A stretch of DNA of 64,000 bases from Candidatus Omnitrophota bacterium (GTDB lineage: Bacteria; Omnitrophota; Gorgyraeia; Gorgyraeales; Gorgyraeaceae): the NCBI GenBank assembly GCA_030649895.1, contig JAUSEX010000031.1, positions 2,620 through 66,619 of the forward strand, read 5' to 3'. The translations under genes were made by a program, and so were the position numbers. Shown here piece after piece: positions 34,384 to 59,986 of this stretch (within the stretch, counting starts at the first letter, position 1; each line of letters begins with the position of its first letter). The notes under the pieces are model-generated. The model was not told the DNA's origin. It searched no databases and saw only the letters and a list, made by a program, of their open reading frames with translations.

Positions 34384-34506
34384 TATATATTCTTCGAGCG
34401 AGGCCGAAGGCCGAGTCGAGAAGTCTGCACCGAGTTATGTTGAAGAGCTCTCGATTCGCGGAGTTTATCCTGAGCGAAGCGAAGGGCTCGCTCGAACACT
34501 ATTAAA

Positions 34507-38314: not shown

Positions 38315-38329
38315 TGTCTTAGAAAAAAT

Positions 38330-39655: not shown

Positions 39656-39663
39656 GTTAAGAT

Positions 39664-41511: not shown

Positions 41512-41543
41512 TATCGCGGAACTTATACGGAAGAGATGAATGT

Positions 41544-41963
41544 ATGAAAAATAATATTGTTCGAGCGAGGCCCGAAGAGCAGAGTCGAGAACTGCGGAAA
41601 TTCGGGTTTAATATAGGTTTAGGTTTGAATATACTCGGATGCATAATGTTTTACAGGCGCAGGGAACATTTTATATGGCTTGCTGCTATCGGGTCCGCTG
41701 CCCTGGTTTCAGCTGTTTTATATCCGAAGGCCTTAAAGCCGCTAAAGAAGTTTTTAGACAAGCTGATTTTTATTATTGGCTGGCTCATGAGCGCGATAAG
41801 CATGTCGATAGTTTTTTATCTAATATTCACGCCAATAGCAATCTTGCTTAGAATTATTGGAAAAGACCTGCTTAATGAAAAAATGGATAAAAAAGCCGCT
41901 TCTTATTGGATCAAGAGAAAGGCAAGTATTTTTTCAGAAAAATCTTATGAACAGATGGGCTGA
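41544..41963 (+). CDS. small membrane protein, SxtJ-like (carbamoyltransferase-associated)
   Basis: Two TM helices. Gene order mirrors the sxtI-sxtJ arrangement; family assignment is from memory. An alternative TTG start at 41508 overlaps the upstream stop. Confidence 0.35.
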   Translation: MKNNIVRARPEEQSRELRKFGFNIGLGLNILGCIMFYRRREHFIWLAAIGSAALVSAVLYPKALKPLKKFLDKLIFIIGWLMSAISMSIVFYLIFTPIAILLRIIGKDLLNEKMDKKAASYWIKRKASIFSEKSYEQMG

Positions 41964-41977
41964 AGATAGGATGGAGA

Positions 41978-42760
41978 ATGAACTTAATAGTCAGATTTAA
42001 AAAAATAATAGCTGAAAGACAGATTATCAGGGGCATGGTAATAAAAAATTTAAAGAGCAAATATATCGGCTCTATATCAGGGATCTTGTGGGCTGTTATA
42101 AATCCTTTGTTGATTATGCTGGTGATCACCTTTGTTTTTAGCCAGATAATGAAGACAGATATAAAGCATTTTCCATTATTGGTGTTAAGCGCGCTTTTAC
42201 CTTGGAATTTTTTTAATAATTCTATAAATGAATCCGCAGCTTCGATCAGCAGCAATGTCGATGTGTTAAGGCAATTTGTGATGCTTAAAGAGACTATCCC
42301 TATAGCTACGGTAATAACTAATCTTATAACTTTTTTATTTGGTTTTATAATTGTCCTGCCGGTTTTTATTATGTTTAATACAGGCATTGTAAATTATCTT
42401 ATCTTGCTGCCTTTTGTAGTGGTGCTACATTTTATTTTTACATTAGGGATCTCCATGCTTCTTAGTATAATAAATGTTTATTTTAAAGACTTGCCTCAGT
42501 TATTGAATATTTTTTTAATGTTACTATTTTGGCTTACGCCTGTATTTTATTCCATAGATATGATACCTCAAAAATACCACTGGCTTATTATTGCCAATCC
42601 GAGCGCATGTTATATTATTATTTACAGGGCGCTATTATATCAGGGTTTTAGCGGCGGCATATCTATATGGTTACTTGCGATTGGATTTGCTTTGATCAGC
42701 ATAATAAGCGGGTATTTTTTATTTATGAAAAAAGAATCGGAAATCTTGAAATACGCGTAG
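41978..42760 (+). CDS. wzm: ABC-2 type polysaccharide exporter permease (Wzm/TagG-like)
   Basis: 260 aa, six TM helices, ABC-2 family pattern. Immediately upstream of the ATPase. Confidence 0.8.
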   Translation: MNLIVRFKKIIAERQIIRGMVIKNLKSKYIGSISGILWAVINPLLIMLVITFVFSQIMKTDIKHFPLLVLSALLPWNFFNNSINESAASISSNVDVLRQFVMLKETIPIATVITNLITFLFGFIIVLPVFIMFNTGIVNYLILLPFVVVLHFIFTLGISMLLSIINVYFKDLPQLLNIFLMLLFWLTPVFYSIDMIPQKYHWLIIANPSACYIIIYRALLYQGFSGGISIWLLAIGFALISIISGYFLFMKKESEILKYA

Positions 42761-42783: not shown

Positions 42784-45597
42784 ATGAGCATGATATCTTT
42801 AAAAGATGTTGGTTTAAAATATAAGGTAGAGTTTAAAGAAAACGGCAGGATTACAACCGAGGATTTTTTGGCGCTTAAGGATATAAATATAGAGATAGAA
42901 AAAGGGGAAATCGTAGGGATCATAGGTGAAAATGGGGCTGGGAAAACCACGTTACTTAAAATAATAGCCAGGATGCTGGCGCCTGATAAGGGTACAGTTG
43001 ATGTAAATGGCAAAGTCTCTATGCTTATGGAAATAGGGTCTGGTTTTCACAGGGAGCTTACAGGCAGAGAGAATATATATACTATTTCTTCATTATTTGG
43101 CTTTTCAAAAGCGGAGATAGAGGCGAAATATGGTGATATAGTGAAGTTTGCAGCTATAGGCAGGTTTATAAATGCGCCGGTAAAGATTTATTCTCAAGGC
43201 ATGTATATGCGCCTGGCTTTTGCTATAGCGATACATGTGAACCCCGATATCTTGCTGGTGGATGATATATTTGCGGTCGGAGATGTTTATGCGCAGCGTA
43301 AATGTATCAATAAAATGTTTGAACTTAAAGAGCAGGGCAAGACTATTATTTTTGTTAACCAGGATATAGAAATACTAAAAAGATTCTGCACAAAGGGTAT
43401 ATTCTTAAGGGAAGGCAGCGTTGTTAAGGAAGGACCTATAGATAAAATATGCGATTACTATATGGAATCAGTGGGTGAAAAAAAAGGAATTGCTATTTTG
43501 GAAAAAGGTTTATTAGGCGTAGTTTTTAATAATGGCAGACTTATTCTAAGGTGGAAGAACAACGCTATTACATGTGGTTTTGGCGGATATACTATGGTTT
43601 TAACTTCAGGCCGTCAATATCTGTCAAATACTGCTGACTGGGAAGTCCAAAAGTCTAAGACAGGCGATGAAATCATAGCCATAGGTAAATGGCCTGATAC
43701 CCCGCTTATTCAATGCTGGAAAATAGTTTTCTTAAGTGAGAGAGAATTTTCATGGGAAATAACGATGCAAATGTTTGAAAATATTGCTATAGAGAAATTT
43801 TCTGCAGATATTATATTTATAGAGGGATATAAAAAGTGGTTTACTTTGGACAGTGAAACTAGTTTCCCGGAGGCTTTTGTTCACGATGCAGAATGGGAAT
43901 ACAATCTAGTCAGTGATTCTGCCAATAAGCTAATCGGCTTAAAAGGCAATAATCAAATATCAGGCTTTTTACCCGTGGTAATTTTAGACAGGTCTAATGA
44001 TAATATGGAAATAAAATGTGAAGTTTGTAATACAGGCGCCGATATAGGAGGCAGGGCAGTCCGATATCAGTCTCTTTGTCAGAAGCCGGGATTTGATTAT
44101 ATCCAGGATAAATACAGGTGTTTCCTTAGCACGGTAAGAATATTTGAATCTGAAGAAGGCGAGGGTTTAAAAAATTATATTAGTTGTACAAAACAAATAA
44201 TAAGTGAATCCTACATTATACGCAAAGGCTTAATAAGCCTTTTTTGCAAGGATCATAAGGTTGAAATTTATTATCGAGATAAATTACTTACGAGCGGAAT
44301 AGGTTTAAATGTGAGATTTAAATGCCAAGATAAAAATTACAGCCCTCTTGATGGGCAATGGGTTATGCACAAAAAAAATAATGAAGAAATAGCAATAACT
44401 ATTTCTTGGGGCGGGAAATCGCCACTTATTCAAACATGGAAGCTGAAATTGCAGGATGATAATGTTGTAGCATGGGAAATAGAGATGGAGATTAATGAAA
44501 AGACAGTGATAAGAAATAAGGAAGTAGAGCTGACACTTAATGAAGAATATGAGAAATGGATAACTGAGAATGAAAGAGGAGATTTTAAAAAAGCAGAGAA
44601 ACAAGGCAGCACAGTGCTTTTAAATAAATATATAAATGAACATATCGGCGTAGAGGGCATATCTAAAGTGGATGGGTTAGTTTTGCCTGGTGTAATATTT
44701 AATTATAAAGACGCGGCCCCCAAGGTTTCTTACATTTCTAAAATAAAAGAAGGGATAATGGCTACAAAATTACGGTATACGGAAATAGACTGTAAGGATA
44801 ATTTTTATATTCCATCAGGAAGGTATGAATATTTTAAAGGCGAGATAAAAGTGATAGCTGATCAAGAAAAAAGCCAGGATTTGATAAATAAAAAATCGGC
44901 TATTGGTAAGAAGGAATCATTAAACAGAATAGAACTTGGCAGCGTGTCGTTAGTTTTTGATAACGGAAGAGGCAGGATTTTTTGGAACGGTACAGAATTG
45001 ACAAAAGGATTAGGGCTGTACGCGTCTATTTTTTTTAAAGACGTATGGCATGATTCCTCTCAGGCTTTTTGGGAGGTTAAAAAGTTAGACCAAAAAAGAT
45101 TATCGGCTGTTGGTTATTGGCCTTGGCTGCCACTGATACAGACTTGGAAGATTTGTTTAGAGGATGAAAATACTGTTGTGTGGGATATAAAAAAAGAAAT
45201 TTGGGATGATGTTATTTTAAAAAGAGAACAGGTAAATCTTATGCTTTCGGATAACTATAAGGCATGGTCTGCTCATAAACGAATTCATGGAAAGTTTCCC
45301 AGTACATTTAGCAAGCATAGTGGTATTTTTTGGGATAGACTGTGGTGTGGGGATACTACCTCTCCTATTAGAGTTGAAAAGCAGAGGATTGGAAATAGGA
45401 TTTTAGGTGGGCAGCTTTTACCAGCTGTTGCTCTTGATTGTTCAATAGATTGTCCTGCCCGCTATTTCATTATTGAAAATACGGATGATTTATTTGAAGC
45501 CCGGGTTCTACAGTGTGAATTTGATTCGAATCAGAAATGCGGCGTTAATAAAGATAGAGATAAATATTTTGAAGGGCGAATCAAGGTAAATATTTAA
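42784..45597 (+). CDS. wzt: ABC transporter ATP-binding protein (Wzt/TagH-like) with ~690-aa C-terminal extension made of three novel bipartite modules
   Basis: Start placed at ATG 42784 (MSMISLKDVGL) after the permease stop. Walker A GENGAGKTT, ABC signature YSQGMYMRLAFA, Walker B ILLVDDIFAVGD. The C-terminal repeats start near 43510, 44230 and 44940. Confidence 0.85.
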   Translation: MSMISLKDVGLKYKVEFKENGRITTEDFLALKDINIEIEKGEIVGIIGENGAGKTTLLKIIARMLAPDKGTVDVNGKVSMLMEIGSGFHRELTGRENIYTISSLFGFSKAEIEAKYGDIVKFAAIGRFINAPVKIYSQGMYMRLAFAIAIHVNPDILLVDDIFAVGDVYAQRKCINKMFELKEQGKTIIFVNQDIEILKRFCTKGIFLREGSVVKEGPIDKICDYYMESVGEKKGIAILEKGLLGVVFNNGRLILRWKNNAITCGFGGYTMVLTSGRQYLSNTADWEVQKSKTGDEIIAIGKWPDTPLIQCWKIVFLSEREFSWEITMQMFENIAIEKFSADIIFIEGYKKWFTLDSETSFPEAFVHDAEWEYNLVSDSANKLIGLKGNNQISGFLPVVILDRSNDNMEIKCEVCNTGADIGGRAVRYQSLCQKPGFDYIQDKYRCFLSTVRIFESEEGEGLKNYISCTKQIISESYIIRKGLISLFCKDHKVEIYYRDKLLTSGIGLNVRFKCQDKNYSPLDGQWVMHKKNNEEIAITISWGGKSPLIQTWKLKLQDDNVVAWEIEMEINEKTVIRNKEVELTLNEEYEKWITENERGDFKKAEKQGSTVLLNKYINEHIGVEGISKVDGLVLPGVIFNYKDAAPKVSYISKIKEGIMATKLRYTEIDCKDNFYIPSGRYEYFKGEIKVIADQEKSQDLINKKSAIGKKESLNRIELGSVSLVFDNGRGRIFWNGTELTKGLGLYASIFFKDVWHDSSQAFWEVKKLDQKRLSAVGYWPWLPLIQTWKICLEDENTVVWDIKKEIWDDVILKREQVNLMLSDNYKAWSAHKRIHGKFPSTFSKHSGIFWDRLWCGDTTSPIRVEKQRIGNRILGGQLLPAVALDCSIDCPARYFIIENTDDLFEARVLQCEFDSNQKCGVNKDRDKYFEGRIKVNI

Positions 45598-45621
45598 GAT
45601 TTATTTTATTAGATAGATAAA

Positions 45622-46656
45622 ATGGACATTAGCACGCAAAATATCAATGCAAATTTTAAAAGAAACGGATCAAATTCTATTTTTCCGAATTATTGCTGTT
45701 TTGTAATTACGCTTAAGTGTATAATGAAATGTAAAATGTGTCACATTTGGAGAGATAGTGGAAACATCTTAAACGAACTGACAATTCAAGAATGGAAAGA
45801 TGTTGTAAATTCTCTCAAGGGTTTTTTGGATACGAAATATGATATTATATTATCCGGCGGAGAGCCGCTTTTAAAGAAAGATATACTAGGTCTGGTAAGT
45901 TATATTGCAAAATCAGGGTACAGGGCATCTCTTGAAACAAACTCTTATCTTGTTGATGAAGAACTGGCCAGGGCAATCCAGGATTCAGGGTTGTGGAGAA
46001 TTTGTATTTCATTGGATAGCTTGGCTGAGGATACGCATGATTCATTAAGAGGAAGAAAAGGTTCGTATGGAAGGGTAATGAGAGGGATTGAATATTTAAA
46101 TAAGTTTTGTCCATCGGTCGGTATAAATATACAAACTACTATTATGGAGCAAAATTTAGATGAGCTTGCTAAGCTTGCTGAATGGGTAGCTAGTGATGAA
46201 CGATTAGATTATGTTTATTTCCAGGCAATAGTCCGTCCTTTTGGCACGCCTATGGATGAAAATTGGTTTAAAGGCGATCATTATGGGTTTTTATGGCCTA
46301 GCCATACAGATAAAGTAAATCTGGCTATAGAAGAGCTGATAAGAATTAAAGAAAATAATCCTAAAATTGCCAATACAGTTGCTCAGTTTAAGGCGTATAA
46401 GGCATATTTTAAAGACCCGGTTAACTTCGGTAATAACATAAAATGCACGATAGGTAACCGCGATATTAATATAAATCCATGCGGCGATGCATACCTTTGT
46501 TTTTCAAAAGATTCCATAGGCAATATAAAAAATAGAAGCATAGAAGAAATATGGTATTCAGAAAAGGCTGACAAGGTAAGAAATGAGATCATTGGCTGTA
46601 AAAAACATTGCCATTTTTTACTCAATTGTTCTTTTGAAAAGGGAGACTATTTTTAG
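45622..46656 (+). CDS. radical SAM protein with C-terminal Cys-rich (SPASM/twitch-like) domain, paralog 1 of 8
   Basis: 344 aa. YCCFVITLKCIMKCKMCHIW (CxxxCxxC), SGGEPLL glycine motif, C-terminal C-x12-C-x5-C...C-x3-C-x5-C (IGCKKHCHFLLNC). Confidence 0.8.
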   Translation: MDISTQNINANFKRNGSNSIFPNYCCFVITLKCIMKCKMCHIWRDSGNILNELTIQEWKDVVNSLKGFLDTKYDIILSGGEPLLKKDILGLVSYIAKSGYRASLETNSYLVDEELARAIQDSGLWRICISLDSLAEDTHDSLRGRKGSYGRVMRGIEYLNKFCPSVGINIQTTIMEQNLDELAKLAEWVASDERLDYVYFQAIVRPFGTPMDENWFKGDHYGFLWPSHTDKVNLAIEELIRIKENNPKIANTVAQFKAYKAYFKDPVNFGNNIKCTIGNRDININPCGDAYLCFSKDSIGNIKNRSIEEIWYSEKADKVRNEIIGCKKHCHFLLNCSFEKGDYF

Positions 46657-46679
46657 TAGATTTTTATCTAAAAATTATT

Positions 46680-47696
46680 ATGCAAGATAAGCCATTTAAT
46701 TTTTTAAAATCTCAAAGCAGCCTTTTAGATATACGAAAACCGGCATTTTGCTGTATAGGTATTTCTACAGGGTGCATTTTGAAATGCAAGATGTGTTCAG
46801 TGTGGAAAACCAAATATGTTGCTATGCCACAAGAACCTACTATGGATGAATGGTTTCGTTTTATCGAGCTTGCTGCCGGCTTAACGGAAAATTCTATCGA
46901 GATAAACGTTTCCGGAGGAGAGCCTTTATTAGATGAAAGAAATTTAGCGTTAGTTAAATTTAGCGCCAAAAAAGGACTTTCAACTTCTATGCCTACCAAC
47001 GGTTTTCTCATAGACAAAGAGATGGCTTATAAAATAGCAGATAGCGGACTAAGCGCGATAGGCATATCTTTGGATGGTATCAAAAAAGATACGCATGATT
47101 TTTTAAGAGGCGTAGAGGGATGCCATGACAAAGCAATGCAGGCGATTGACTATCTTGATAGATGCTGCGGAAATATAGGAATAGGAATTTTGACAACTAT
47201 ATCAGAGAAGAATATCGATGAAATTATTGAGCTAACCAGGTGGGCTAATGAAGACAATAGAATCGAAACTATTATTTTTCAGGCGGTAACTCAGCCATTT
47301 AATACTCCTTTTGACGATGAATGGCATGATAAAAGCGAATATAGTTTTCTCTGGCCGAAAGACATCAGAAAGACCCATGTCTTATTAGACGAGATAATAA
47401 AACTAAAAAAAATGGCGTATAAGATATCCAACACAGTTTCTCAATTGGAAACTTTTAAGAAGTATTTTGAAAACCCCTTGGGATTTATTAAAAAAGATGC
47501 GTGTAATGTGGATTTTTATATGAATATAAATCAATTTGGAGATGTATATATGTGTCCAAGAAAAAAAGCTGTAGGGAATATAAGAAAATGCACTCCAAAA
47601 GATATGTGGTATTCAGAAGGCGCAAATCAAATGAGAGAAGAAATAAAAAGCTGCAGAGTAAATTGTCATCATGTATTAAATTGTTGTTATGAATGA
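46680..47696 (+). CDS. radical SAM/SPASM-like protein, paralog 2
   Basis: 338 aa. FCCIGISTGCILKCKMCSVW, SGGEPLL, KSCRVNCHHVLNCCYE. Confidence 0.8.
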   Translation: MQDKPFNFLKSQSSLLDIRKPAFCCIGISTGCILKCKMCSVWKTKYVAMPQEPTMDEWFRFIELAAGLTENSIEINVSGGEPLLDERNLALVKFSAKKGLSTSMPTNGFLIDKEMAYKIADSGLSAIGISLDGIKKDTHDFLRGVEGCHDKAMQAIDYLDRCCGNIGIGILTTISEKNIDEIIELTRWANEDNRIETIIFQAVTQPFNTPFDDEWHDKSEYSFLWPKDIRKTHVLLDEIIKLKKMAYKISNTVSQLETFKKYFENPLGFIKKDACNVDFYMNINQFGDVYMCPRKKAVGNIRKCTPKDMWYSEGANQMREEIKSCRVNCHHVLNCCYE

Positions 47697-50600
47697 GGAT
47701 GGTGGTTATCGTATGAACAGCTGGACAGCAAAATTTAAGAATAAAATATATGCGTTCGAAAAGATATTCAAGCAAAAAAGGACAAGCTTTCGCACGATAT
47801 ATAATGGTACCTTAAGGCTCTTTCTGGATGAAAATAATAGGCTTAGGATATATTATAAAGACAATGAGCTTACAAAAGTCTCCGGTTTGAATACTAACAT
47901 ATTATCCGAAGCTAATTGGCATAGTTCGCTTGACTCTATAGTTAATAATATAGAAAAACTATCTTCTGAAGAGATGATTATCCATTTGAAGCATAGTCAG
48001 CTTCCTCTTGTGCAAGCTTGGCATCTGAAATGCAACTCAGAAGATACGCTTAGCTGGGAAGTAAATATGCATATAAAAAAACCGTTACGTATAGATTGTA
48101 TGAAAGCATCCTTGTTCTTATCCAAAGCTTATGAGGATTGGATAATTCCTGCCAAACAAGATACATTTCCTCCTTTTTCTGATTTTCAATGGAAAAGTAT
48201 GAATTCTTTTGAAGATAAAGCCGGCTTCATAGGCCTTGCTTCTTCCTTAGAAGAATTTCCTGGCATGTCTCTTAAAAGTTCTGATAACTCAAAAGCTTCA
48301 TTAATAATCCAAAATACCGATATAAATCTTTCTTCCCGTGTTCTTGAAATTCAATGCGAAGATAAAAAAGAATTCTACCAGCCCGGCACCTACTCTTTTC
48401 TTAAGGCCACAATACAGTTTTATCCTGATAAGAATGTTTTAAAAAATATTCTCAAAGAAATAAAGGAGCAGGAACAAAAGAAGCAGGACGAGCTAATGCT
48501 TCAAGAAGAAGAGCGCCTCAAAAAAGCCAAAGAGGAAGACCATAAGCTCCGCACCCTTCAAAGCGGCCCCTTTAGGCTCCATATAGACCAGCATAACAGG
48601 TTTCACCTCTATTATAAAGAACAAGAGCTTACCAAAGGAGTTGGTATTAATATGGGAATACTCTCTGAAGGTAATTGGTATGCTGCCTGTGATTCCAGAA
48701 TTGAAATAAAAAGGCCGTCTTCTAATAAGATGCTTGTACAGTTTATTTACAATAAGCTTCCTGTTATTTGCTCATGGCAGATAGATTTTAAGCCGGAAGG
48801 CGTGTTTACCTGGGTCATTGATATATCTTTTAAAGAATCTCTACGCATAGATCGAAGCAATGTTTCTTTATTCTTATCCAAATCTTACGATAATTGGATT
48901 GCTCCTCCTGAAGAAGGGAGTTTCAGCTCTTCATTCGGCCCAGGGTGGCAAAGGATGAATACTCACAAAGACAATGCTGAATTTACCGGATTATATTCTT
49001 CTTCAGAAGAATTTCCGGATGTGATTTGTAAAAGCTCAAAGGATTCAAAAGCTTCATTAATAATCCAAAATACCGATATAAATCTTTCTTCCCGTGTTCT
49101 TGAAATTCAATGCGAAGATAAAAAAGAATTCTACCAGCCCGGCACCTACCCTTTTCTTAAGGCCACAATACAGTTTTATCCTGATAAGAATGTTTTAAAA
49201 AATATTCTCAAAGAAATAAAGGAGCAGGAACGAAAGAAGCAGGAACAGGAACAAAAACGGCTTCAAGAATTAGAAAGGCTTAGACAGGAAGAAGAAAGGC
49301 TTAAGCAGGAACAGGAACAGAAGAAACAGGAAGAAAATCACAAACAGAATGAATTTAAAAAAATATACATGTTATTAAAAGAAGACGAAAAAGATTTTCC
49401 ATTAATCGAGGATAATGATGTGTATGTATATGGAGACTGCGAAGACTTGCATGACAAAATTGCTTCTCAACAAGGAAATTTTAATAATCTCATTTCAAGA
49501 ATAGAGACAGCCAAAAAAAAAGGTTTAAAGGTTAATATAAAAATAGGCGTATCGAAATTTAATTTTTTTAAGCTAGACACTATTATTCAATTTTATTCTA
49601 GATTGCTAAATAGCCGCATAGACCTGCGTTCTGTTTCTTTGAATTTTTTACCCGCAAAGAATATTTTTTATTATTTCGCCGAGTATATAAAACAATTAAA
49701 TATGCAGCTCGAATCGAGTAATATAGGGCTTTTCTTAAGAGACAAAGAGTTGCCCGGCCTTCTTTGGGCTATTTCTAGCCAAGCAGATCAATATAATGAG
49801 AAAGATTTATTGCGATTATTGGGAGTTATAACGGAGCACGCCTTTATTGGACCTCAAACTATCGTTCTAGATATTAATCATAGCTGTAATACTAATTGTA
49901 TACATTGTTGGATCCATACGCCAAAGCGTAAGGCCTCTCTACAGCTTAGTAATTTAAAGATGGACATCTCTTTATATAAAAATATTATTGATGATGCGGC
50001 AAATCTTTTATGTGACGAGATTATCATACAGGGAGATGGCGAGCCTCTTCTAGACGATAGATTTTTAGAAATGACCTGTTATGCGCGGGATAAGGGATTA
50101 AAAGTTTTATTTTTTACGAATGGCATACTTTTGGATAAAGAAAAAGCCGGTAGAATAATAGACTTGGAAGTAAACGAGATATTCTGCAGCCTTCCTGCAG
50201 GAACAGATAAGACTTATGCCTTGGTTAATCCGGGGCATTCAAAGGATACCTTTCATCATATAGCAGCGAATTTAAAAAATTTAAGCTTGATGAGAAAAAA
50301 ATCAGGAAAAAACAAACCATTATTACAAATGTCCCATGTTATCCATAACCTGAATTATCATGAGTTAGAAGAAATGGCTGAATTGGACGCTTATATAGGA
50401 GCGGATAAAACAAGATTTTATCTTGCCCGCTTAGATGAGAATATAGATTTTTTAAAATTAAGCCCTAGACATATTAAGATAATAAAAGAATCCCTAAAAA
50501 AGACAGCGCCCTATTTAAAAAGCAAGCACGTAGAATTACAAGACAATATATATTTTCAGCTAGAAAACTATAACTCTACAACAGGTTATTGGTCTAAAAA

Positions 50601-50910
50601 TGCGTTTTTAAAGTCTGGCTGTCCGGTGGGATGGTTTTTTTCTTTAATATTAGCCAAGGGTGAAGTAAGCATTTGCTGTCATTTGCGCGTTGTTGATCAT
50701 TTAAAACTCAAATCTTTTGAAGATATATGGAAATCTGAATCTTATAATAAATTCAGAAGTCAAGCCAAGTATTTAGCAAAAAACAAAAATATTGTTTTTA
50801 ACAATAATATGAAACTATATGATGAATTTTGCAATCATTGCGATACTCATCAGGTTATTTTAAGGATTTATGACTTGCTTCAAAAGTATAATCTGCATAA
50901 ATTTTTATAA
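47689..50910 (+). CDS. giant multidomain radical SAM/SPASM protein (2 novel bipartite modules + E/K/Q-rich coiled coil + rSAM core)
   Basis: 1073 aa. The N-terminal half has two copies of the Wzt-type module. A KEQEQKKQ.../RLQELERLRQEEERLKQEQEQKKQEE linker follows. The C-terminus carries CNTNCIHC (CxxxCxxC), GDGEPLL, and a Cys-rich tail (CPVGW...ICCH, CNHCD). Confidence 0.8.
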   Translation: MNEDGGYRMNSWTAKFKNKIYAFEKIFKQKRTSFRTIYNGTLRLFLDENNRLRIYYKDNELTKVSGLNTNILSEANWHSSLDSIVNNIEKLSSEEMIIHLKHSQLPLVQAWHLKCNSEDTLSWEVNMHIKKPLRIDCMKASLFLSKAYEDWIIPAKQDTFPPFSDFQWKSMNSFEDKAGFIGLASSLEEFPGMSLKSSDNSKASLIIQNTDINLSSRVLEIQCEDKKEFYQPGTYSFLKATIQFYPDKNVLKNILKEIKEQEQKKQDELMLQEEERLKKAKEEDHKLRTLQSGPFRLHIDQHNRFHLYYKEQELTKGVGINMGILSEGNWYAACDSRIEIKRPSSNKMLVQFIYNKLPVICSWQIDFKPEGVFTWVIDISFKESLRIDRSNVSLFLSKSYDNWIAPPEEGSFSSSFGPGWQRMNTHKDNAEFTGLYSSSEEFPDVICKSSKDSKASLIIQNTDINLSSRVLEIQCEDKKEFYQPGTYPFLKATIQFYPDKNVLKNILKEIKEQERKKQEQEQKRLQELERLRQEEERLKQEQEQKKQEENHKQNEFKKIYMLLKEDEKDFPLIEDNDVYVYGDCEDLHDKIASQQGNFNNLISRIETAKKKGLKVNIKIGVSKFNFFKLDTIIQFYSRLLNSRIDLRSVSLNFLPAKNIFYYFAEYIKQLNMQLESSNIGLFLRDKELPGLLWAISSQADQYNEKDLLRLLGVITEHAFIGPQTIVLDINHSCNTNCIHCWIHTPKRKASLQLSNLKMDISLYKNIIDDAANLLCDEIIIQGDGEPLLDDRFLEMTCYARDKGLKVLFFTNGILLDKEKAGRIIDLEVNEIFCSLPAGTDKTYALVNPGHSKDTFHHIAANLKNLSLMRKKSGKNKPLLQMSHVIHNLNYHELEEMAELDAYIGADKTRFYLARLDENIDFLKLSPRHIKIIKESLKKTAPYLKSKHVELQDNIYFQLENYNSTTGYWSKNAFLKSGCPVGWFFSLILAKGEVSICCHLRVVDHLKLKSFEDIWKSESYNKFRSQAKYLAKNKNIVFNNNMKLYDEFCNHCDTHQVILRIYDLLQKYNLHKFL
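48290..48477 (+). repeat. intragenic near-identical direct repeat, copy 1 (copy 2 at 49046-49233)
   Basis: The two 188-nt copies differ at 2 positions (756-bp period). Flanking module sequence has diverged to ~50% amino-acid identity. Confidence 0.85.
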
Positions 50911-50922
50911 AGGATTTTAGCT

Positions 50923-53115
50923 ATGAAAATAGTCCTTGCTAATTTGCCATGGAATAGTTTTGGAAAAGTAGGGGTTCGGGCAGGTTCGAGATGGCCGCAT
51001 TTAAAAGGCCGTACTGAAAAGCATTATTTACCTTTTCCTTTTTTCTTGGCGTATACGGCAGCTTTGCTTAAAGAAAATGATTTTGACGTGAAGTTGATTG
51101 ATGCTATTGCCGAGAAAAGATCGTATAAGGGGTTTTTGGGCGACATAAAAAAACTTAAGCCGCGCATCCTTATCTGCGAAACTTCAACGGTTACCTTGGA
51201 GCATGATATAAAATTTTTAGAAAAGATAAAGAAAGAGGTTTCGGGTATTTTTTTTGTAATTTGCGGCCCTGATATCAATATAAGGCAACCTGCTTTTCTT
51301 GAAAAATATAGATTTATAGACGCTGTCCTTGCCGGAGAATACGAATTTACAGTTCTTGACTTGGTCAGGTGCATCCGGGAAAATAAGGAGTTAAATAATA
51401 CGCCGGGCATTATATATCGCGATTCAAATAATGTTAAGGTTAATCCATTCCGCCCCCTGATTAACCTGGATAAATTGCCATGGCCATTGAGAAAAGGGCT
51501 GCCTATGGGCATGTATAATGATACGCCAGGGGATATGCCTATACCGTCAGCGCAAATGCTTGCCAGCCGCGGTTGCCCTTATAGATGCAAATTCTGTCTT
51601 TGGCCTCAAGTTATGTATCAAAGCAATAGTTACAGGGCCAGGGATATAATTGACGTGGTGGATGAAATGGAATATTTAATAAAAGAGATGCATTTTAAAT
51701 CAATATATTTTGATGACGATACTTTCAATGTGGGCAAGGGTCGGATGTTAAAGTTGTGCGATGAGATAAAAAAGCGGAAGCTGGATATTCCTTGGGCAAT
51801 AATGGCAAGGGCTGATTTGATGGATAGGGAAATTTTAGAAAAAATGAGAGAGACAGGATTATTTGCGGTTAAGTATGGAGTAGAATCTGCGTCACAAGAA
51901 CTTTTGGATAATATAAATAAGAATATGGATATTAAGAAAACAGAAGAAATTATAAGGCTTACAAAGAAGCTGGGCATTAAAACTCATTTGACGTTTACAT
52001 TCGGCCTTCCCGGCGAAACTAAAGAAACTATACGAAAAACAATAGATTTTGCGTTAAGATTAGACCCTGCTACTATCCAATTTTCCATAGCTACGCCTTT
52101 TCCAGGGACATCTTTTTATGAAGAGATGATGGCGAAAGGCCATATTATTTCCGAAAATTGGACAGAGTATGACGGGAATCATAAAAGCGTCATAGGTTTA
52201 CCTGATACCACAAAAAAAGACCTTGAATTTGCCATAAGGTCTGCTTATAAAGAGTGGGCTGTTCATTGTTCTAGAAGAAATACATTTAAGAAATTAGGTT
52301 ATTACCAGTTAATGTCAAAATCATTAAAGGTGCATGGAATTTTTATAACATTTTTTAAGATTATAAGATTTTTAACACGATATTTGTTTCTATATCTCAA
52401 AGAAAAAATATTTTTTAAAAAAGAGATAGAAAATAAGACAAAAGAAAATGGCCTTAAAATCGGCAGATTAATATTAATATTTAATGGCAACGGCCTGGTA
52501 TTGTATTGGGATGATATGCGGTTGACGAAAGGAGAAGGTTTCGCAAGTTTATTTAGTTTTCAAGGAAAATTATCGCAAAAACTTTTTAATCAATGTTGGA
52601 ATTTTGAAAGGGTAAATAATAATGAGCTGTTACTTACAAGGAGCCAAGATGGCGTTGGTATGGATGAGACATGGAGGCTGAAGATTATAGATGAAAAGCA
52701 GATTGATTGGGAGATAGAGATTAATTTAAAGAATGAAATTGAATTTAGCGCCAAAAAGGCCATGCTTATTTTGTCAAGCAGGTATCGTACGTGGATAGAT
52801 AGCTGGGGCGAAGGCAGGTTCTATCCTATGACAGATTATAGAAATGTAGAATTAAGAAATCCTAGCACCGGTTTTATAGGGTTAAGAGGGCGCAAAAAAC
52901 TAAAAGGCCAACTGCCAACTATCTTGCTGGAATTATCAGGAAATAATGGCAGCTATTTACCTTTTATCAAAAATGCCAAGTCGATTTTTGGCGCCAGGGT
53001 GCTTGAGGCGCAGATAAAAAACTTCAACGGGCATGGTGAAAAATATTTGCCTGGCGCATATAAATTATTTTCTGGAAGAATAAAGATTGTAGAAGAAGAT
53101 TTTAGCAAGAGATAA
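50923..53115 (+). CDS. B12-binding radical SAM protein fused to a C-terminal novel bipartite module
   Basis: 730 aa. N-terminal 470 aa is paralogous to the 19904 gene (CPYRCKFC). The C-terminal ~220 aa (from GRLILIFNGNGLVLYWDD...) matches the Wzt/giant-rSAM module. Confidence 0.85.
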   Translation: MKIVLANLPWNSFGKVGVRAGSRWPHLKGRTEKHYLPFPFFLAYTAALLKENDFDVKLIDAIAEKRSYKGFLGDIKKLKPRILICETSTVTLEHDIKFLEKIKKEVSGIFFVICGPDINIRQPAFLEKYRFIDAVLAGEYEFTVLDLVRCIRENKELNNTPGIIYRDSNNVKVNPFRPLINLDKLPWPLRKGLPMGMYNDTPGDMPIPSAQMLASRGCPYRCKFCLWPQVMYQSNSYRARDIIDVVDEMEYLIKEMHFKSIYFDDDTFNVGKGRMLKLCDEIKKRKLDIPWAIMARADLMDREILEKMRETGLFAVKYGVESASQELLDNINKNMDIKKTEEIIRLTKKLGIKTHLTFTFGLPGETKETIRKTIDFALRLDPATIQFSIATPFPGTSFYEEMMAKGHIISENWTEYDGNHKSVIGLPDTTKKDLEFAIRSAYKEWAVHCSRRNTFKKLGYYQLMSKSLKVHGIFITFFKIIRFLTRYLFLYLKEKIFFKKEIENKTKENGLKIGRLILIFNGNGLVLYWDDMRLTKGEGFASLFSFQGKLSQKLFNQCWNFERVNNNELLLTRSQDGVGMDETWRLKIIDEKQIDWEIEINLKNEIEFSAKKAMLILSSRYRTWIDSWGEGRFYPMTDYRNVELRNPSTGFIGLRGRKKLKGQLPTILLELSGNNGSYLPFIKNAKSIFGARVLEAQIKNFNGHGEKYLPGAYKLFSGRIKIVEEDFSKR

Positions 53116-53119
53116 TGAT

Positions 53120-54379
53120 ATGAAAAATATTTTCTATAATTGCACTAACGTTTTTAGAATTAAAAGGCTTTTTGGGAACTATATTGATACTATTAGTGTT
53201 TTTGACGGCTTATACGCATATAGAGGCCCTGGTTTCGCACAGATAGATTTAACGAACAACTGCAATAATGATTGCATAGGCTGTTGGTGTAATTCCCCTC
53301 TTTTGGAGGAAAAAAAGATTGATCCTGAGATAAAAAAACAAAGCCTTCCTTTCAAAAGGGTTATAAAGTTGATAGATGAGCTCTATAAAATGGGGGCTAG
53401 CCACATATATTATGCGGGTGGAGGAGAACCATTTATGCATCCTCAGATTATGGATATTCTCAGATATACAAAAAAGAAAGGGTTTACATGCTATGTTAAT
53501 ACGAATTTTACTTTAGTTGATGAAAAGGCCGTGAAAGAGTTAGTGGGTTTAAAAATAGATCATTTGACCGTGAGCGTTTGGGCAGGAACGCCGCAAGTTT
53601 ATTCTACCACTCACCCTAGTAAAAACGAAGATACGTTTTATAAAATAAAAGAAATGTTGAAGTTGCTAAATACGATTAAGCATAAATATCCTATAATAAA
53701 ACTTTATAATGTTATTTTCAATATGAACTATCATAGCATAGAAACAATGGTTGAGTTTGCTGCCCAAACTGGTTCGGAAACAGTAGAATTTACCGTTATA
53801 GATACGATACCAGGAAAAACGGATAAATTATTACTAAACGACAAAGAGGCGCGCAGTTTGCTTGATGACTGCGGAAGATTAAAGGAAAAATACGGAGATT
53901 TTAAAAATAATGTTCAATTGCTGGGATTTGAGCAATTTATGCGCAGGATTTCAAATATTGATGCTGTATCTGCGGAATATGATTCAAACATTATAGGGAA
54001 GATACCTTGCTATGCAGGGTGGGCATTTGTAAGGATATTAGCGGATGGCAATGTTAATTCATGCCTTAAGTCGCATAGATTTCCGGTTGGAAATATACTT
54101 GGCCAGGATTTTCGTAAGATTTGGAACGGTTCATTGCAGAGGCGTTTTAGGGAGAAAACAGCGGAGTTTAAACAAGGAGATTCTTTCTTTTCCTTGATCG
54201 GCAATGACCCTGATTCTAATATGGGTTGCTATAAAAGCTGTGATAATATAGGACATAACATGAATATGCACGGCAAATTTACTTCACTTAATAAATTAGA
54301 GAGAAATGCCTTAAAAGGCATAGCTAATATCATGAAAACCATAAGGAAAATCAAGGAGGCGGCAAATGGCAGAAACTAA
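53120..54379 (+). CDS. radical SAM/SPASM-domain protein
   Basis: 419 aa. CNNDCIGC (CxxxCxxC), AGGGEPFMH, and a C-terminal Cys cluster (CYAGW...CLKSH, CYKSCDNIGH). Confidence 0.8.
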   Translation: MKNIFYNCTNVFRIKRLFGNYIDTISVFDGLYAYRGPGFAQIDLTNNCNNDCIGCWCNSPLLEEKKIDPEIKKQSLPFKRVIKLIDELYKMGASHIYYAGGGEPFMHPQIMDILRYTKKKGFTCYVNTNFTLVDEKAVKELVGLKIDHLTVSVWAGTPQVYSTTHPSKNEDTFYKIKEMLKLLNTIKHKYPIIKLYNVIFNMNYHSIETMVEFAAQTGSETVEFTVIDTIPGKTDKLLLNDKEARSLLDDCGRLKEKYGDFKNNVQLLGFEQFMRRISNIDAVSAEYDSNIIGKIPCYAGWAFVRILADGNVNSCLKSHRFPVGNILGQDFRKIWNGSLQRRFREKTAEFKQGDSFFSLIGNDPDSNMGCYKSCDNIGHNMNMHGKFTSLNKLERNALKGIANIMKTIRKIKEAANGRN

Positions 54380-54537
54380 TTTACAAAAGTTTGTTAAACA
54401 TTGCAAGGCAGGCGGGTTATTTTATGCTATTAGTAGAGGCGTTAAATATGTAACTTGGCGCAATAAATGTAAAAAAATGGGTATAGACTGTGGAAAATTC
54501 AGCAGAGAAAGATAGCTGTATTAAAAAAAGGTGATTT

Positions 54538-55587
54538 TTGGAATATCTTAAAGAGTTGCTCGGGACTAAAAAATGTTTCGATAGAAAGATATTGGAATTT
54601 TCCTGTTTTGGCATAACTGATGATTGTATCTTAAAATGCAAGATGTGCCATAAATGGAAAGAGGATATATTTATTAAAAAAAAGGCAAAGATCCCCTCTT
54701 TGAAAGATTGGAAGAATTGCGTTAGTTCTATTAGGGGCATCACTGATGATTCTTTTCAGATAAACTTTGGCGGAGGAGAGCCATTTTTAAATAAAGATAT
54801 CTTGGAATTAGTCAGGTTCTGTAAATCAAAAAACTTTAAGACAAATATAGCTACTAATGGATATCTTATAGATCAAGAGATGGCTAAAAAGATAGCGGAT
54901 TCCGGATTGGACAGCGTTATCTTATCATTAGATAGTCTGGATGAAAATACGCATGATTATTTGAGAGGCGTAAAGGGTGTTTTTAGCAGAGTCATGGATG
55001 GCATGGCGCATCTCGATAAATATTGTAACGGTATTTATAAGGGCATATGCTGCGCGATATATGAAAAGAACTTAGATGGCATATTGAATCTTATGGAGTG
55101 GGTAGATAATGATTCCAGAATAAATTCCATTTATTTCATGGCTTGCATGCAGCCGAATAATACTCTGGTAGATCCGGGGTGGCATAAAAAAGATGAATTT
55201 AATTTTCTTTGGCCGAAAGATTCAAAAAAGATCTCTGGTGTAATAGACAAGCTTATAGAGCATAAAAAAAATAATTCCAAAATAACCAATCAAATTTGTC
55301 AATTAGAAGCATTTAAGTTATACTACCGGTGTCCGGAGAAATTTGTCAAGAATACAAAATGCAATATGGATAGAGCTGTTCATATCAGTTCTTGCGGCGA
55401 TATATTTCTTTGCTATAGATGGCCTTTATTAGGCAATATTCAGACAGATGATCTAGCCGAGGTCCTGGGCTCAGAAAAAGCCGGGCGTATAAAGCAAGAT
55501 ATAGCCGGCTGTAAAGATAACTGCCATTTTTTGCTTAATTGTTTTTTTAAAGATGAATATCCTTTTGAATCAGAAACCAAAAAATAA
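54538..55587 (+). CDS. radical SAM/SPASM-like protein, paralog 3
   Basis: 349 aa. FSCFGITDDCILKCKMCHKW, GGGEPFL, AGCKDNCHFLLNCFF. Confidence 0.8.
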   Translation: MEYLKELLGTKKCFDRKILEFSCFGITDDCILKCKMCHKWKEDIFIKKKAKIPSLKDWKNCVSSIRGITDDSFQINFGGGEPFLNKDILELVRFCKSKNFKTNIATNGYLIDQEMAKKIADSGLDSVILSLDSLDENTHDYLRGVKGVFSRVMDGMAHLDKYCNGIYKGICCAIYEKNLDGILNLMEWVDNDSRINSIYFMACMQPNNTLVDPGWHKKDEFNFLWPKDSKKISGVIDKLIEHKKNNSKITNQICQLEAFKLYYRCPEKFVKNTKCNMDRAVHISSCGDIFLCYRWPLLGNIQTDDLAEVLGSEKAGRIKQDIAGCKDNCHFLLNCFFKDEYPFESETKK

Positions 55588-55610
55588 ATTATATACGAAA
55601 GGAATTTTAA

Positions 55611-56669: not shown

Positions 56670-56670
56670 A

Positions 56671-57717: not shown

Positions 57718-57731
57718 ATATCCTTGACCAG

Positions 57732-59982: not shown

Positions 59983-59986
59983 AATA

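What the first reader, a model, noticed from the sequence alone, without database searches (positions are those of the whole stretch)
43510..53115. Novel ~210-aa bipartite module shared by the Wzt ATPase C-terminus (3 copies), the 1073-aa radical SAM giant (2 copies) and the B12-radical SAM (1 copy)
By eye the six copies align over two sub-domains. Sub-domain A (~120 aa) has the pattern h.h.F.nG...h.Y......LT.G.Gh......W........P.hQ.W.h......W.h.h........h.h.LS..Y..W. Example stretches are LLGVVFNNGRLILRWKNN...PLIQCWKIVFLSEREFSWEITM (Wzt), LRLFLDENNRLRIYYKDNELTKVSG...LPLVQAWHLKCNSEDTLSWEVNM (giant rSAM) and GRLILIFNGNGLVLYWDDMRLTKGEG...DETWRLKIIDEKQIDWEIEI (B12-rSAM). Sub-domain B (~90 aa) carries GFIGL...LP.hhL...S...ARVLE.Q...G..Y..G.IKh. 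Wzt C-terminal domains normally read the chain-terminating modification of the polymer they export. Fusing the same module to radical SAM catalysts would deliver those catalysts to the same polymer. I do not recognise the module as the classical Wzt_C jelly-roll.
Basis: seen in the sequence. Interest (0 to 1): 0.85.

Follow-up and report, generated by a model that had tools for sequence, protein, structure and literature searches.

The report
Shared sugar-binding-like domain on exporter and enzymes
Six copies of a previously unnamed 220-residue domain, with a fold typical of sugar-handling proteins, sit on a polymer-export ATPase and on two radical SAM enzymes in a gene cluster conserved across Omnitrophota, which suggests that exporter and tailoring enzymes use related domains to hold one cell-surface polymer.

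Summary
Exactly six paralogous copies of a ~220-aa module lie in the window: three after the Wzt nucleotide-binding domain, two at the N-terminus of the 1073-aa radical SAM/SPASM protein, and one at the C-terminus of the B12-radical SAM protein. Pairwise BLASTP E-values are 1e-9 to 1e-28. Per-copy E-values against an HMM built from other genomes are 1e-53 to 1e-68.

An exhaustive search found 617 representative proteins carrying it. Most are Wzt with 2-8 tandem copies. Others are radical SAM enzymes, GT-C glycosyltransferases and a secreted sulfatase-fold enzyme.

About 25 Omnitrophota loci keep the same order: Wzm, Wzt with modules, radical SAM array with modules.

The most likely role is a non-catalytic substrate-recognition domain for a lipid-linked glycan, shared by exporter and tailoring enzymes. 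This is inferred, not shown.

The copies are ancient, position-specific paralogues. Only some keep the full polar signature, so they need not bind the same thing.

The parts
41978..42760 (+). Wzm, ABC-2 type permease partner of Wzt
   Evidence: Pfam ABC2_membrane 2.6e-13. Homologues sit directly upstream of the module-bearing Wzt in 14 related loci.
42784..43485 (+). Wzt nucleotide-binding domain. The likely true start is ATG 42784, 24 nt after the wzm stop; the ORF as listed opens at 42667.
   Evidence: Pfam ABC_tran 7.6e-21. NCBIfam TagH/Wzt-type ATPases 1e-42 to 7e-60, all below the equivalog cut-offs. No TM-like segment in the protein.
43486..44154 (+). Module copy Wzt-1 (supersandwich domain, polar signature partly lost)
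   Evidence: HMM domain E 3.2e-59. Orthologous to Wzt position 1 in other genomes at 38-47% identity. Signature E30->A, W47->Q, D49->L, D187->G.
44206..44865 (+). Module copy Wzt-2 (the copy that was modelled; most degenerate signature)
44917..45591 (+). Module copy Wzt-3 (C-terminal copy, complete signature)
   Evidence: HMM E 2.1e-68. All 18 signature positions match the consensus. The last Wzt module keeps the polar signature best across genomes: 100% at most polar positions in 3-module Wzt proteins, less uniformly in 5-module ones.
45622..47696 (+). Two small radical SAM/SPASM paralogues (45622-46656 and 46680-47696)
   Evidence: Pfam Radical_SAM + SPASM. CxxxCxxC at aa 32-33, so there is no N-terminal recognition domain. 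No NCBIfam equivalog cut-off is reached.
47785..48432 (+). Module copy giant-1 (N-terminal on the 1073-aa radical SAM/SPASM protein, gene 47689-50910)
   Evidence: HMM E 2.7e-66. 13 of the 18 signature positions match the consensus; W55 is V and Q79 is kept.
48544..49188 (+). Module copy giant-2
   Evidence: HMM E 5.3e-65. 53% identical to giant-1. Its 3' part is an 87% DNA repeat of giant-1.
49369..50910 (+). Catalytic radical SAM/SPASM part of the giant protein. It is preceded by Glu/Lys/Arg/Gln-rich linkers at 48433-48546 and 49189-49368.
   Evidence: Pfam Radical_SAM 5.7e-14 and SPASM 1.7e-8. CNTNCIHC at aa 733. Linker composition is 61% and 72% E+K+R+Q.
50923..52422 (+). B12-binding radical SAM catalytic part. 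It is HpnJ-like but below the family cut-off.
   Evidence: Pfam Radical_SAM 7.4e-23. B12-binding 29.3 bits against cut-off 32.1. NCBIfam HpnJ 266.6 bits against cut-off 577.6.
52441..53100 (+). Module copy B12-1 (C-terminal on the B12-radical SAM protein; polar signature degenerate)
   Evidence: HMM E 6.7e-59. Orthologues are 38-59% identical. Signature E30->R, W47->L, D49->Q, S50->L, D187->K.
53120..62012 (+). Rest of the radical SAM array: the 419-aa rSAM/SPASM (53120-54379), six more ~340-aa paralogues (54538, 55611, 56671, 57732, 59915, 61035) and a GDSL/TPR gene (58714-59982)
   Evidence: Pfam. Paralogue identities are 34-52%. The same array follows the module-bearing genes in related loci.
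36159..41963 (+). Upstream glycan-assembly genes: GT4 glycosyltransferase, WecA/MraY-type polyprenyl-phosphate sugar-phosphate transferase, FAD oxidoreductase, carbamoyltransferase, SxtJ-like
   Evidence: Pfam. Recurrence across the 38 loci: FAD oxidoreductase 12, glycosyltransferase 13, sugar-phosphate transferase 7, carbamoyltransferase 10. L008 is fully syntenic.

Best explanation
The six stretches are paralogous copies of one ~220-residue domain family that has no name in current sequence libraries. The family has the galactose-mutarotase-like beta-supersandwich fold and is found almost only in Candidatus Omnitrophota.

In these bacteria a tandem array of 2-9 copies takes the place of the jelly-roll carbohydrate-binding domain at the C-terminus of the Wzt ATPase. 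Further copies are fused to the tailoring enzymes of the same conserved locus. Here those are the N-terminus of a large radical SAM/SPASM enzyme and the C-terminus of a B12-radical SAM enzyme. Elsewhere they are GT-C glycosyltransferases and a secreted sulfatase-fold enzyme.

The most likely mechanism is inferred, not shown. The domain is non-catalytic and recognises the substrate. It binds the polyprenol-linked glycan made by the upstream sugar-phosphate transferase and glycosyltransferases. On the radical SAM enzymes it would play the role that a leader-peptide recognition element plays in peptide-modifying radical SAM maturases, holding the polymer at the catalyst. On Wzt it would recruit the polymer to the Wzm channel and possibly license its export.

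Copies that keep the full polar and aromatic signature (E30, W47, D49, S50, Q79, N185, D187, R193) are the likeliest ligand binders; in the window Wzt copy 3 keeps it in full and the two giant-rSAM copies keep most of it. Degenerate copies (Wzt 1 and 2, and the B12-rSAM copy) may be spacers or read something else.
For: Shown:
- The six copies are homologous.
- No hit in Pfam, NCBIfam or PDB sequences.
- AF2 model with pLDDT 90 and pTM 0.88.
- 617 representative proteins carry the module.
- Architectures of the best 150: 84 Wzt NBD + 2-8 modules, 8 giant rSAM, 5 B12-rSAM, 9 GT-C, 1 sulfatase-fold, 2 NBD+modules+rSAM, 1 B12+rSAM.
- 38 loci, mostly Omnitrophota, share the order Wzm, Wzt+modules, small rSAMs, giant rSAM+modules, B12-rSAM+module.
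- L021 encodes NBD+5 modules+rSAM in one ORF.
- The sulfatase-fold fusion has an N-terminal signal anchor and lies in a glycan locus with GT1, GT2, GT4, CysD/N-like genes and rSAM/SPASM genes. The module therefore works outside the cytoplasm too. That suits a ligand that crosses the membrane better than docking to cytoplasmic Wzt.
- No His is conserved, and the conserved set is rich in Trp, Tyr, Phe, Arg, Asn and Asp.
- The full signature is kept best in the terminal Wzt module and in the catalyst-proximal enzyme modules.
- The small rSAMs have no N-terminal recognition domain.

Established knowledge: the Wzt C-terminal CBD binds the terminal cap of the polymer and is needed for export (PMC9445017).
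Against: - No binding data exist, and the polymer is unknown.
- The supersandwich fold also occurs in proteins with no known sugar-binding role: YidC P1, the chloroplast NDH subunit PnsB2, and a PBCV-1 capsid protein. Fold alone does not prove glycan binding.
- I could not map the signature residues onto the model, because no coordinates were available. That they form one pocket is an assumption.
- Different positions are only 21-30% identical, and half of the window's copies lack signature residues.
- The periplasmic location of the GT-C fusions' modules is inferred from family knowledge. My crude TM counts (7-12) do not settle it.
- A conserved 49-aa ORF inside the radical SAM array leaves room for a peptide substrate.
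Confidence: 0.55

Rival explanations
1. The modules are protein-protein assembly domains. Wzt displays an array of docking sites, and the enzyme-borne modules pair with them. This would build an exporter-enzyme supercomplex without touching the polymer.
For: - Classical Wzt CBDs are obligate dimers (PMC9445017).
- Internal Wzt modules have lost the polar signature but keep the structural core.
- In 11 of 14 complete loci, the number of Wzt modules equals the number on the giant rSAM plus the number on the B12-rSAM: 3=2+1 or 5=3+2.
- NBD+modules+rSAM fusions exist.
Against: - The count relation rests on only two clades, so it amounts to two independent observations. It fails in L006 and L007 (3 vs 1+1), L024 (4 vs 3+2) and L031 (at least 9 vs 4+2).
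- Modules also sit on a signal-anchored sulfatase-fold enzyme and on GT-C enzymes, whose large C-terminal domains are extracytoplasmic in characterised members. Those cannot dock to a cytoplasmic Wzt.
- No specific similarity pairs a Wzt position with an enzyme module.
Confidence: 0.2
2. The module is itself an enzyme, for example a mutarotase, epimerase, lyase or glycosidase-like supersandwich acting on the polymer or its sugar precursors.
For: - Signature-complete modules keep E30, D49, D187 and R193.
Against: - No conserved His. The aldose 1-epimerase mechanism, to my knowledge, uses a His/Glu pair.
- The acidic residues are conserved in only 47-67% of 297 modules.
- Tandem arrays of 2-9 copies with degenerate members are typical of binding repeats, not catalysts.
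- No sequence match to any enzyme family.
Confidence: 0.08
3. The locus modifies a peptide in a RiPP-like or cofactor-like pathway. The radical SAM/SPASM array would act on a small gene product, the ABC-2 transporter would export it, and the modules would bind that peptide or its carrier.
For: - Radical SAM/SPASM enzymes are most often peptide maturases, to my knowledge, and many of the best NCBIfam matches are peptide maturases.
- A 49-aa ORF at 54366-54515 is conserved at the same position in nine loci, with a ribosome-binding site.
Against: - The small ORF is absent from the second clade, which still has the modules on Wzt, the giant rSAM and the B12-rSAM.
- It is conserved along its whole length, without a variable core.
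- No Pfam match other than Radical_SAM, SPASM and Fer4_12 (so no PqqD/RRE-type domain) in any radical SAM protein scanned.
- Genes flanking the locus encode a polyprenyl-phosphate sugar-phosphate transferase, glycosyltransferases, a carbamoyltransferase and a GT-C enzyme.
- The fold is typical of sugar-handling proteins.
Confidence: 0.07

Closest known systems
Wzt C-terminal carbohydrate-binding domain
   Same: It is fused directly after the Wzt nucleotide-binding domain of a Wzm/Wzt exporter. Its presumed job is to recognise the polymer and recruit it for export.
   Different: - Different fold: a ~220-aa supersandwich against a ~150-aa jelly-roll.
- No sequence similarity.
- Present as 2-9 tandem copies instead of one.
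- Also fused to tailoring enzymes, which to my knowledge is not described for Wzt_C.
Galactose-mutarotase-like supersandwich domains (aldose 1-epimerases; N-terminal domains of GH36-type, GH97, GH15, GH65, GH94 and GH149 enzymes; heparinase II/III C-domain)
   Different: - 5-13% identity, with no profile match to any member family.
- No conserved catalytic His.
- New partners: an ABC ATPase, radical SAM enzymes and GT-C enzymes.
RiPP recognition element (PqqD-like domain) of radical SAM/SPASM peptide maturases
   Same: Same architecture logic: a substrate-recruiting domain fused N-terminally to a radical SAM/SPASM catalyst.
   Different: Unrelated fold. The presumed ligand is a glycan rather than a leader peptide. 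No Pfam match other than Radical_SAM, SPASM and Fer4_12 (so no PqqD-like domain) in any radical SAM protein scanned.
YidC periplasmic P1 domain
   Different: No established sugar-binding role and no sequence similarity. It is a reminder that the fold does not prove glycan binding.
HpnJ (B12-radical SAM enzyme that, per PMC12324291, produces the hopanoid BHT cyclitol ether)
   Same: It is the best-scoring curated family for the catalytic part of the B12-radical SAM host protein. To my knowledge it acts on a sugar attached to a lipid.
   Different: The score of 266.6 is far below the 577.6 cut-off. No hopanoid genes are in the window. HpnJ has no supersandwich module.

Membership tests
Wzt_C carbohydrate-binding domain (PF14524) | Sequence match to the Wzt_C profile | tested here: not met
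   No PF14524 hit at E<=1 on the full Wzt or at E<=10 on each copy. No hit either in five atypical module-bearing Wzt proteins.
Wzt_C carbohydrate-binding domain (PF14524) | Jelly-roll beta-sandwich fold forming a strand-swapped dimer | tested here: not met
Wzt_C carbohydrate-binding domain (PF14524) | Located directly C-terminal to the Wzt NBD of a Wzm/Wzt pair | tested here: met
   NBD at aa 1-234 of the protein started at nt 42784, modules after it, and Wzm immediately upstream.
Wzt_C carbohydrate-binding domain (PF14524) | Binds the terminal cap of the exported glycan | not testable with these tools
   Needs purified protein and the native glycan.
Galactose mutarotase-like supersandwich superfamily | Beta-supersandwich fold | tested here: met
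Galactose mutarotase-like supersandwich superfamily | Sequence membership in a named member family (for example Aldose_epim or the GH N-terminal domains) | tested here: not met
   No such Pfam family at E<=10 for any copy. Profile searches against PDB sequences gave 0 hits at E<=10.
Aldose 1-epimerase (enzyme) | Conserved catalytic His and Glu residues | tested here: inconclusive
   No His reaches 40% conservation in 297 modules. E30 is 67% conserved. No structure-based residue alignment was available to check equivalence.
CAZy carbohydrate-binding module | Demonstrated carbohydrate binding by the isolated module | not testable with these tools
   Only indirect evidence is available: fold, fusion partners and locus content.
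Radical SAM/SPASM (host protein 47689-50910) | CxxxCxxC cluster motif plus SPASM domain | tested here: met
   CNTNCIHC at aa 733. Pfam Radical_SAM 53.1 bits and SPASM 35.1 bits, both above cut-off.
HpnJ (TIGR03471) for host protein 50923-53115 | Score at or above the equivalog cut-off of 577.6 bits | tested here: not met
   266.6 bits. It is a class-B-type radical SAM protein, but Pfam B12-binding scores 29.3 against a cut-off of 32.1.

The most novel reading that the evidence does not exclude
Omnitrophota run a previously undescribed pathway. In this reading, a polyprenol-linked surface glycan is rebuilt by an assembly line of about ten radical SAM enzymes, doing chemistry such as C-H or C-C changes: epimerisation, C-methylation, deoxygenation, ring contraction or cross-linking. 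During this the polymer is held by a dedicated family of supersandwich reader domains. Related readers on Wzt then check the finished polymer and license its export. That would be the glycan counterpart of leader-peptide-guided RiPP maturation.
Probability: 0.3. Interest if true: 0.9.

Novelty: new variant of a known kind. Interest (0 to 1): 0.68.

Why it matters
Cap-reading by a C-terminal Wzt domain is the textbook way that ABC-transporter-dependent glycan export is gated. So far it is tied to one jelly-roll family.

This finding adds three things:
- A second, unrelated fold fills that slot, as long tandem arrays.
- The same domain family is shared with the tailoring enzymes of the locus.
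- It gives a handle on a phylum-wide Omnitrophota locus that puts about eleven radical SAM genes next to a glycan exporter, whose product is unknown.

If the domain does bind the polymer, it can serve as a probe to pull the polymer out. It would also be the first example I know of a carbohydrate-type recognition domain guiding radical SAM enzymes.

It would further supply a new Pfam-type family of at least 617 representative sequences for annotating Omnitrophota genomes.

Tried and rejected
- **The search for homologous proteins** with the six-copy alignment and with the 52-sequence alignment returned nothing, although the exhaustive representative search found 617 proteins. The word-index tool is blind to this family, so no source names or annotations were obtained.
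- **The search for related loci** with the module alignment failed because no stretch was conserved enough. I used an alignment of the giant rSAM instead. The taxonomic picture is therefore anchored on that enzyme, not on the module.
- **The first AF2 run**, with six sequences, gave pLDDT 59.7 and an unreliable second half. It was replaced by the 52-sequence run.
- **The afdb50 fold library** was unavailable.
- **Literature searches** found no description: Wzt + radical SAM, mutarotase-like + Wzt, radical SAM + CBM, and Omnitrophota + radical SAM.
- **Chance or low-complexity similarity** is rejected by the E-values and by position-specific orthology.
- **Two sub-domains** is rejected by the single-domain fold match.
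- **A hopanoid pathway**, considered because of the HpnJ-like hit, is rejected. The score is below the cut-off, and the scans of the window turned up no squalene-hopene cyclase or other hopanoid (Hpn) gene.
- **An anaerobic sulfatase-maturating role** for the small rSAMs was considered. No such family appears among the best NCBIfam matches listed.
- **The module-count equality** (Wzt = giant + B12) was considered as evidence for pairwise docking. I judged it too weak, because it rests on two clades and has several exceptions.
Full report
**1. What is in the window.**

The region is one long same-strand operon-like block. In order, it encodes:
- a GT4 glycosyltransferase (36159-37325)
- a WecA/MraY-type polyprenyl-phosphate sugar-phosphate transferase (37322-38314)
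- an FAD oxidoreductase (38330-39655)
- a carbamoyltransferase (39664-41511)
- an SxtJ-like protein (41508-41963)
- Wzm (41978-42760)
- Wzt (ORF from 42667; the likely start is 42784; ends 45597)
- eleven radical SAM genes between 45622 and 62012, with one GDSL/TPR gene interposed at 58714-59982
- a GT-C (PMT_2) glycosyltransferase (61999-63624)

Among the radical SAM genes, Pfam sees only Radical_SAM and SPASM on the 1073-aa protein (residues 731-1051). On the 730-aa protein it sees only B12-binding and Radical_SAM (residues 42-377). On Wzt it sees only ABC_tran (residues 31-162). That leaves about 700, 560 and 230 residues unassigned. NCBIfam adds nothing on those stretches.

**2.

BLASTP among the three proteins gives several significant local alignments that tile the unassigned regions:
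- Wzt vs giant rSAM: 4.5e-28 and 1.9e-24
- Wzt vs B12-rSAM: 6e-14, 1e-12 and 9e-11
- giant vs B12-rSAM: 1e-18 and 1e-9

A MAFFT alignment of the six pieces shows 21-28% identity, and 53% between the two giant-rSAM copies. Eleven columns are invariant.

I built an HMM from 297 full-length modules taken only from other genomes. A six-frame scan of the whole window with it finds exactly six domains, with domain E-values of 2.5e-53 to 2.1e-68. The only other match is noise (E = 25).

**3. It is one domain, with a known fold and no known sequence family.**

No Pfam family is credible for any copy at E<=10. Profiles of 6 and of 52 sequences hit no PDB sequence at E<=10.

AlphaFold2 with only the six copies was poor in the second half (pLDDT 59.7). 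With 52 diverse family members it reached pLDDT 90.0 and pTM 0.88, all-beta.

In these matches 166-206 of 228 residues align, at 5-13% identity. Foldseek agrees. No Wzt CBD is listed by either method.

**4. The family outside the window.**

An exhaustive HMM search of 1.84 billion cluster representatives found 617 proteins at E<=1e-3, and 272 at E<=1e-30.

| Architecture among the best 150 | Count |
|---|---|
| Wzt-type NBD followed by 2-8 modules | 84 |
| Modules only (many may be fragments) | 40 |
| GT-C (PMT_2/ArnT-like) with 2-4 C-terminal modules | 9 |
| 1-3 N-terminal modules + giant-type rSAM/SPASM | 8 |
| B12-rSAM with modules | 5 |
| NBD + modules + rSAM in one chain | 2 |
| B12-rSAM + module + rSAM/SPASM + module | 1 |
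| Sulfatase-fold enzyme with C-terminal modules | 1 |

None of five atypical Wzt proteins has a Wzt_C domain.

The sulfatase-fold protein has an N-terminal signal anchor. It lies in a locus with two rSAM/SPASM genes, GT4, GT1 and GT2 genes, CysD/CysN-like genes, another sulfatase-fold gene and a phosphodiesterase-family gene.

**5. Conserved locus and taxonomy.**

A scan of one genome per species with an alignment of giant-rSAM orthologues returned 38 loci. Nearly all come from MAGs labelled Candidatus Omnitrophota. A few are labelled Planctomycetia or Patescibacteria but share the same synteny. That the window itself is from Omnitrophota is inferred from this: 45-65% protein identity and full synteny with L008.

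Two clades share the order Wzm, Wzt+modules, small rSAM/SPASM paralogues, giant rSAM+modules, B12-rSAM+module:
- Clade A (the window, L001, L003, L004, L008) has 3, 2 and 1 modules.
- L006 and L007 have 3, 1 and 1.
- Clade B (L016, L018, L023, L025, L026, L036) has 5, 3 and 2. There the B12-rSAM is fused to the 419-aa-type rSAM, with a second module at its end.

L021 encodes NBD + 5 modules + giant-type catalytic domain as one 1856-aa ORF. Distant homologues of the giant rSAM in contigs labelled Deltaproteobacteria, Woesearchaeota, Methanosarcinales or Planctomycetota, and in some Omnitrophota and Patescibacteria contigs, lack modules (L028-L030, L032-L035, L037, L038).

Several neighbours recur across the 38 loci: the FAD oxidoreductase just upstream of Wzm (12 loci), the glycosyltransferase (13), the sugar-phosphate transferase (7), the carbamoyltransferase (10) and the GDSL/TPR protein (12).

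**6. The copies are old, position-specific paralogues.**

Each window copy is most similar to the copy at the same position in other genomes (37-59% identity). It is only 21-31% identical to other positions.

Across 297 modules the conserved set is E30, T32, G36, W47, D49, S50, W55, P76, Q79, W81, W93, Y118, W121, G128, F130, P164, N185, D187, R193 and F213 (numbering of Wzt copy 2). No His is conserved.

The structural aromatics are kept nearly everywhere. The polar set (E30, W47, D49, S50, Q79, N185, D187, R193) is kept best in three places: the last Wzt module, the catalyst-proximal giant-rSAM modules, and both modules of the clade-B B12 fusion. It is eroded in Wzt positions 1 and 2 and in the single B12 module of clade A.

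In the window, Wzt-3 has all 18 signature residues and giant-1 and giant-2 have 13 and 12. Wzt-1, Wzt-2 and B12-1 lack four to six each.

This pattern is what a ligand site kept in some repeats and lost in others would look like. I could not check that these residues are neighbours in space.

**7. Mechanism.**

The established paradigm is this. [quoted passage not shown]

My best explanation is that the supersandwich array is a second, unrelated solution to that task, and that the same domain family was recruited to bring tailoring enzymes to the polymer. The support is as follows:
- The fold is typical of sugar-handling proteins.
- The domain occupies the CBD slot in Wzt.
- It is fused to four kinds of catalyst: radical SAM, B12-radical SAM, GT-C and sulfatase-fold. 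The last two are typical glycan or lipid-linked-glycan enzymes.
- It occurs on both sides of the membrane.
- Rosetta-stone fusions link exporter and radical SAM enzyme.
- The surrounding genes are glycan-assembly genes.
- The radical SAM proteins have no recognition element of the peptide type. Their cluster motif starts at residues 32-48 in the small paralogues.

Every functional step beyond homology, fold and synteny is inference.

**8. Rivals.**

*(a) Protein-protein scaffold.* This is attractive because of the degenerate internal copies and because the Wzt copy number equals the sum of copies on the two enzymes in 11 of 14 complete loci. That amounts to two independent clades with several exceptions. 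Extracytoplasmic fusions also cannot dock to Wzt.

*(b) Catalytic supersandwich.* This is possible in principle but poorly supported.

*(c) Peptide pathway.* A 49-aa ORF (54366-54515) is conserved at the same spot in all nine clade-A loci that cover the gap and has no known family. It is missing from clade B, so it cannot be the common ligand.

**9. Novelty.**

I found no paper describing the domain or the locus. The fold is known and the functional slot on Wzt is known. Three things are new:
- the sequence family
- its use as long tandem arrays
- its sharing between an exporter and radical SAM, GT-C and sulfatase-fold enzymes in a phylum-wide locus of unknown product

I rate it a new variant of a known kind, with a substantial chance that the underlying pathway is new chemistry.

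Noticed in passing
window 54366-54515 (+): A conserved 49-aa ORF (MAETNLQKFVKHCKAGGLFYAISRGVKYVTWRNKCKKMGIDCGKFSRER) lies between the 419-aa rSAM/SPASM gene and the next small rSAM. It is present at the same position, with an RBS visible in several loci, in nine clade-A loci (55-65% identity, HMM E about 1e-30). It is absent from clade B. It has no Pfam or NCBIfam family. It is basic and aromatic-rich, with one conserved Cys.
   Followed up: partly
window 48190-48488 and 48946-49244: A 299-nt direct repeat at 87% identity covers the 3' part of the two giant-rSAM modules and the start of the following linkers. The 5' parts are much more diverged. Giant-1 is closer to position 2 than to position 1 of other genomes, which suggests partial gene conversion.
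   Followed up: partly
window 48433-48546 and 49189-49368: Glu/Lys/Arg/Gln-rich linkers (61% and 72% E+K+R+Q) follow each giant-rSAM module. Their composition resembles single alpha-helix (ER/K) spacers, which would hold the modules at a set distance from the catalytic domain.
   Followed up: no
window 52330-52398 (B12-rSAM aa 470-492): A hydrophobic, basic helix (GIFITFFKIIRFLTRYLFL) sits between the B12-rSAM catalytic part and its module. A comparable segment occurs at the same place in four of the five orthologues checked; the hydropathy peak of the fifth (L001) lies elsewhere. The 19-residue hydropathy reaches 2.05 in L003. It could be an in-plane membrane anchor or a true TM segment. If it is a TM segment, this module would lie outside the cytoplasm.
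   Followed up: partly
window and loci L001-L036: The number of Wzt modules equals the sum of modules on the giant rSAM and the B12-rSAM in 11 of 14 complete loci (3=2+1 or 5=3+2). Exceptions are L006 and L007 (3 vs 2) and L024 (4 vs 5). In L031 the Wzt gene is cut at the contig edge (at least 9 vs 6). This is unexplained.
   Followed up: partly
L021 3516-9083 (= P0013); P0086: Single ORFs encode Wzt NBD + 5 (or 2) modules + a giant-type radical SAM/SPASM catalytic domain. This is a direct exporter-enzyme fusion. I did not check whether it could be an assembly artefact.
   Followed up: no
window 49420-49638 (giant rSAM aa 578-650): Upstream of the true radical SAM core, a stretch matches only the middle of other radical SAM profiles (HxsC, HpnH and ScmE at model positions ~108-198). 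It may be a remnant of a second, degenerate radical SAM barrel.
   Followed up: no
L035 10190-24555: A contig labelled Methanosarcinales archaeon carries about 13 consecutive small rSAM/SPASM paralogues after a module-less giant-type rSAM. It may be a mis-binned contig or an independent expansion of the same enzyme array.
   Followed up: no
L039 5082-11171: The GT-C + 3-module protein P0007 lies next to a B12-radical SAM gene, two CobD/CbiB genes and a FecCD/periplasmic-binding-protein/ABC importer set. This looks like local supply of cobalamin for the B12-dependent enzyme.
   Followed up: no
window 1-35000: Other content, all on the + strand with positive GC skew throughout:
- type IV pilus / T2SS genes (PilM-like 3208, secretin 5971, ATPase 7393, platform protein 9161)
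- a second GT-C gene with TPR proteins (14165-17982)
- another B12-radical SAM gene (19904)
- a GT9 heptosyltransferase-like gene (21664)
- a MiaB-like gene (24880)
- rpoD-like sigma-70 (29417)
- tRNA-Ala, tRNA-Met and tRNA-Val
- RNase P RNA (33975-34387)
   Followed up: partly
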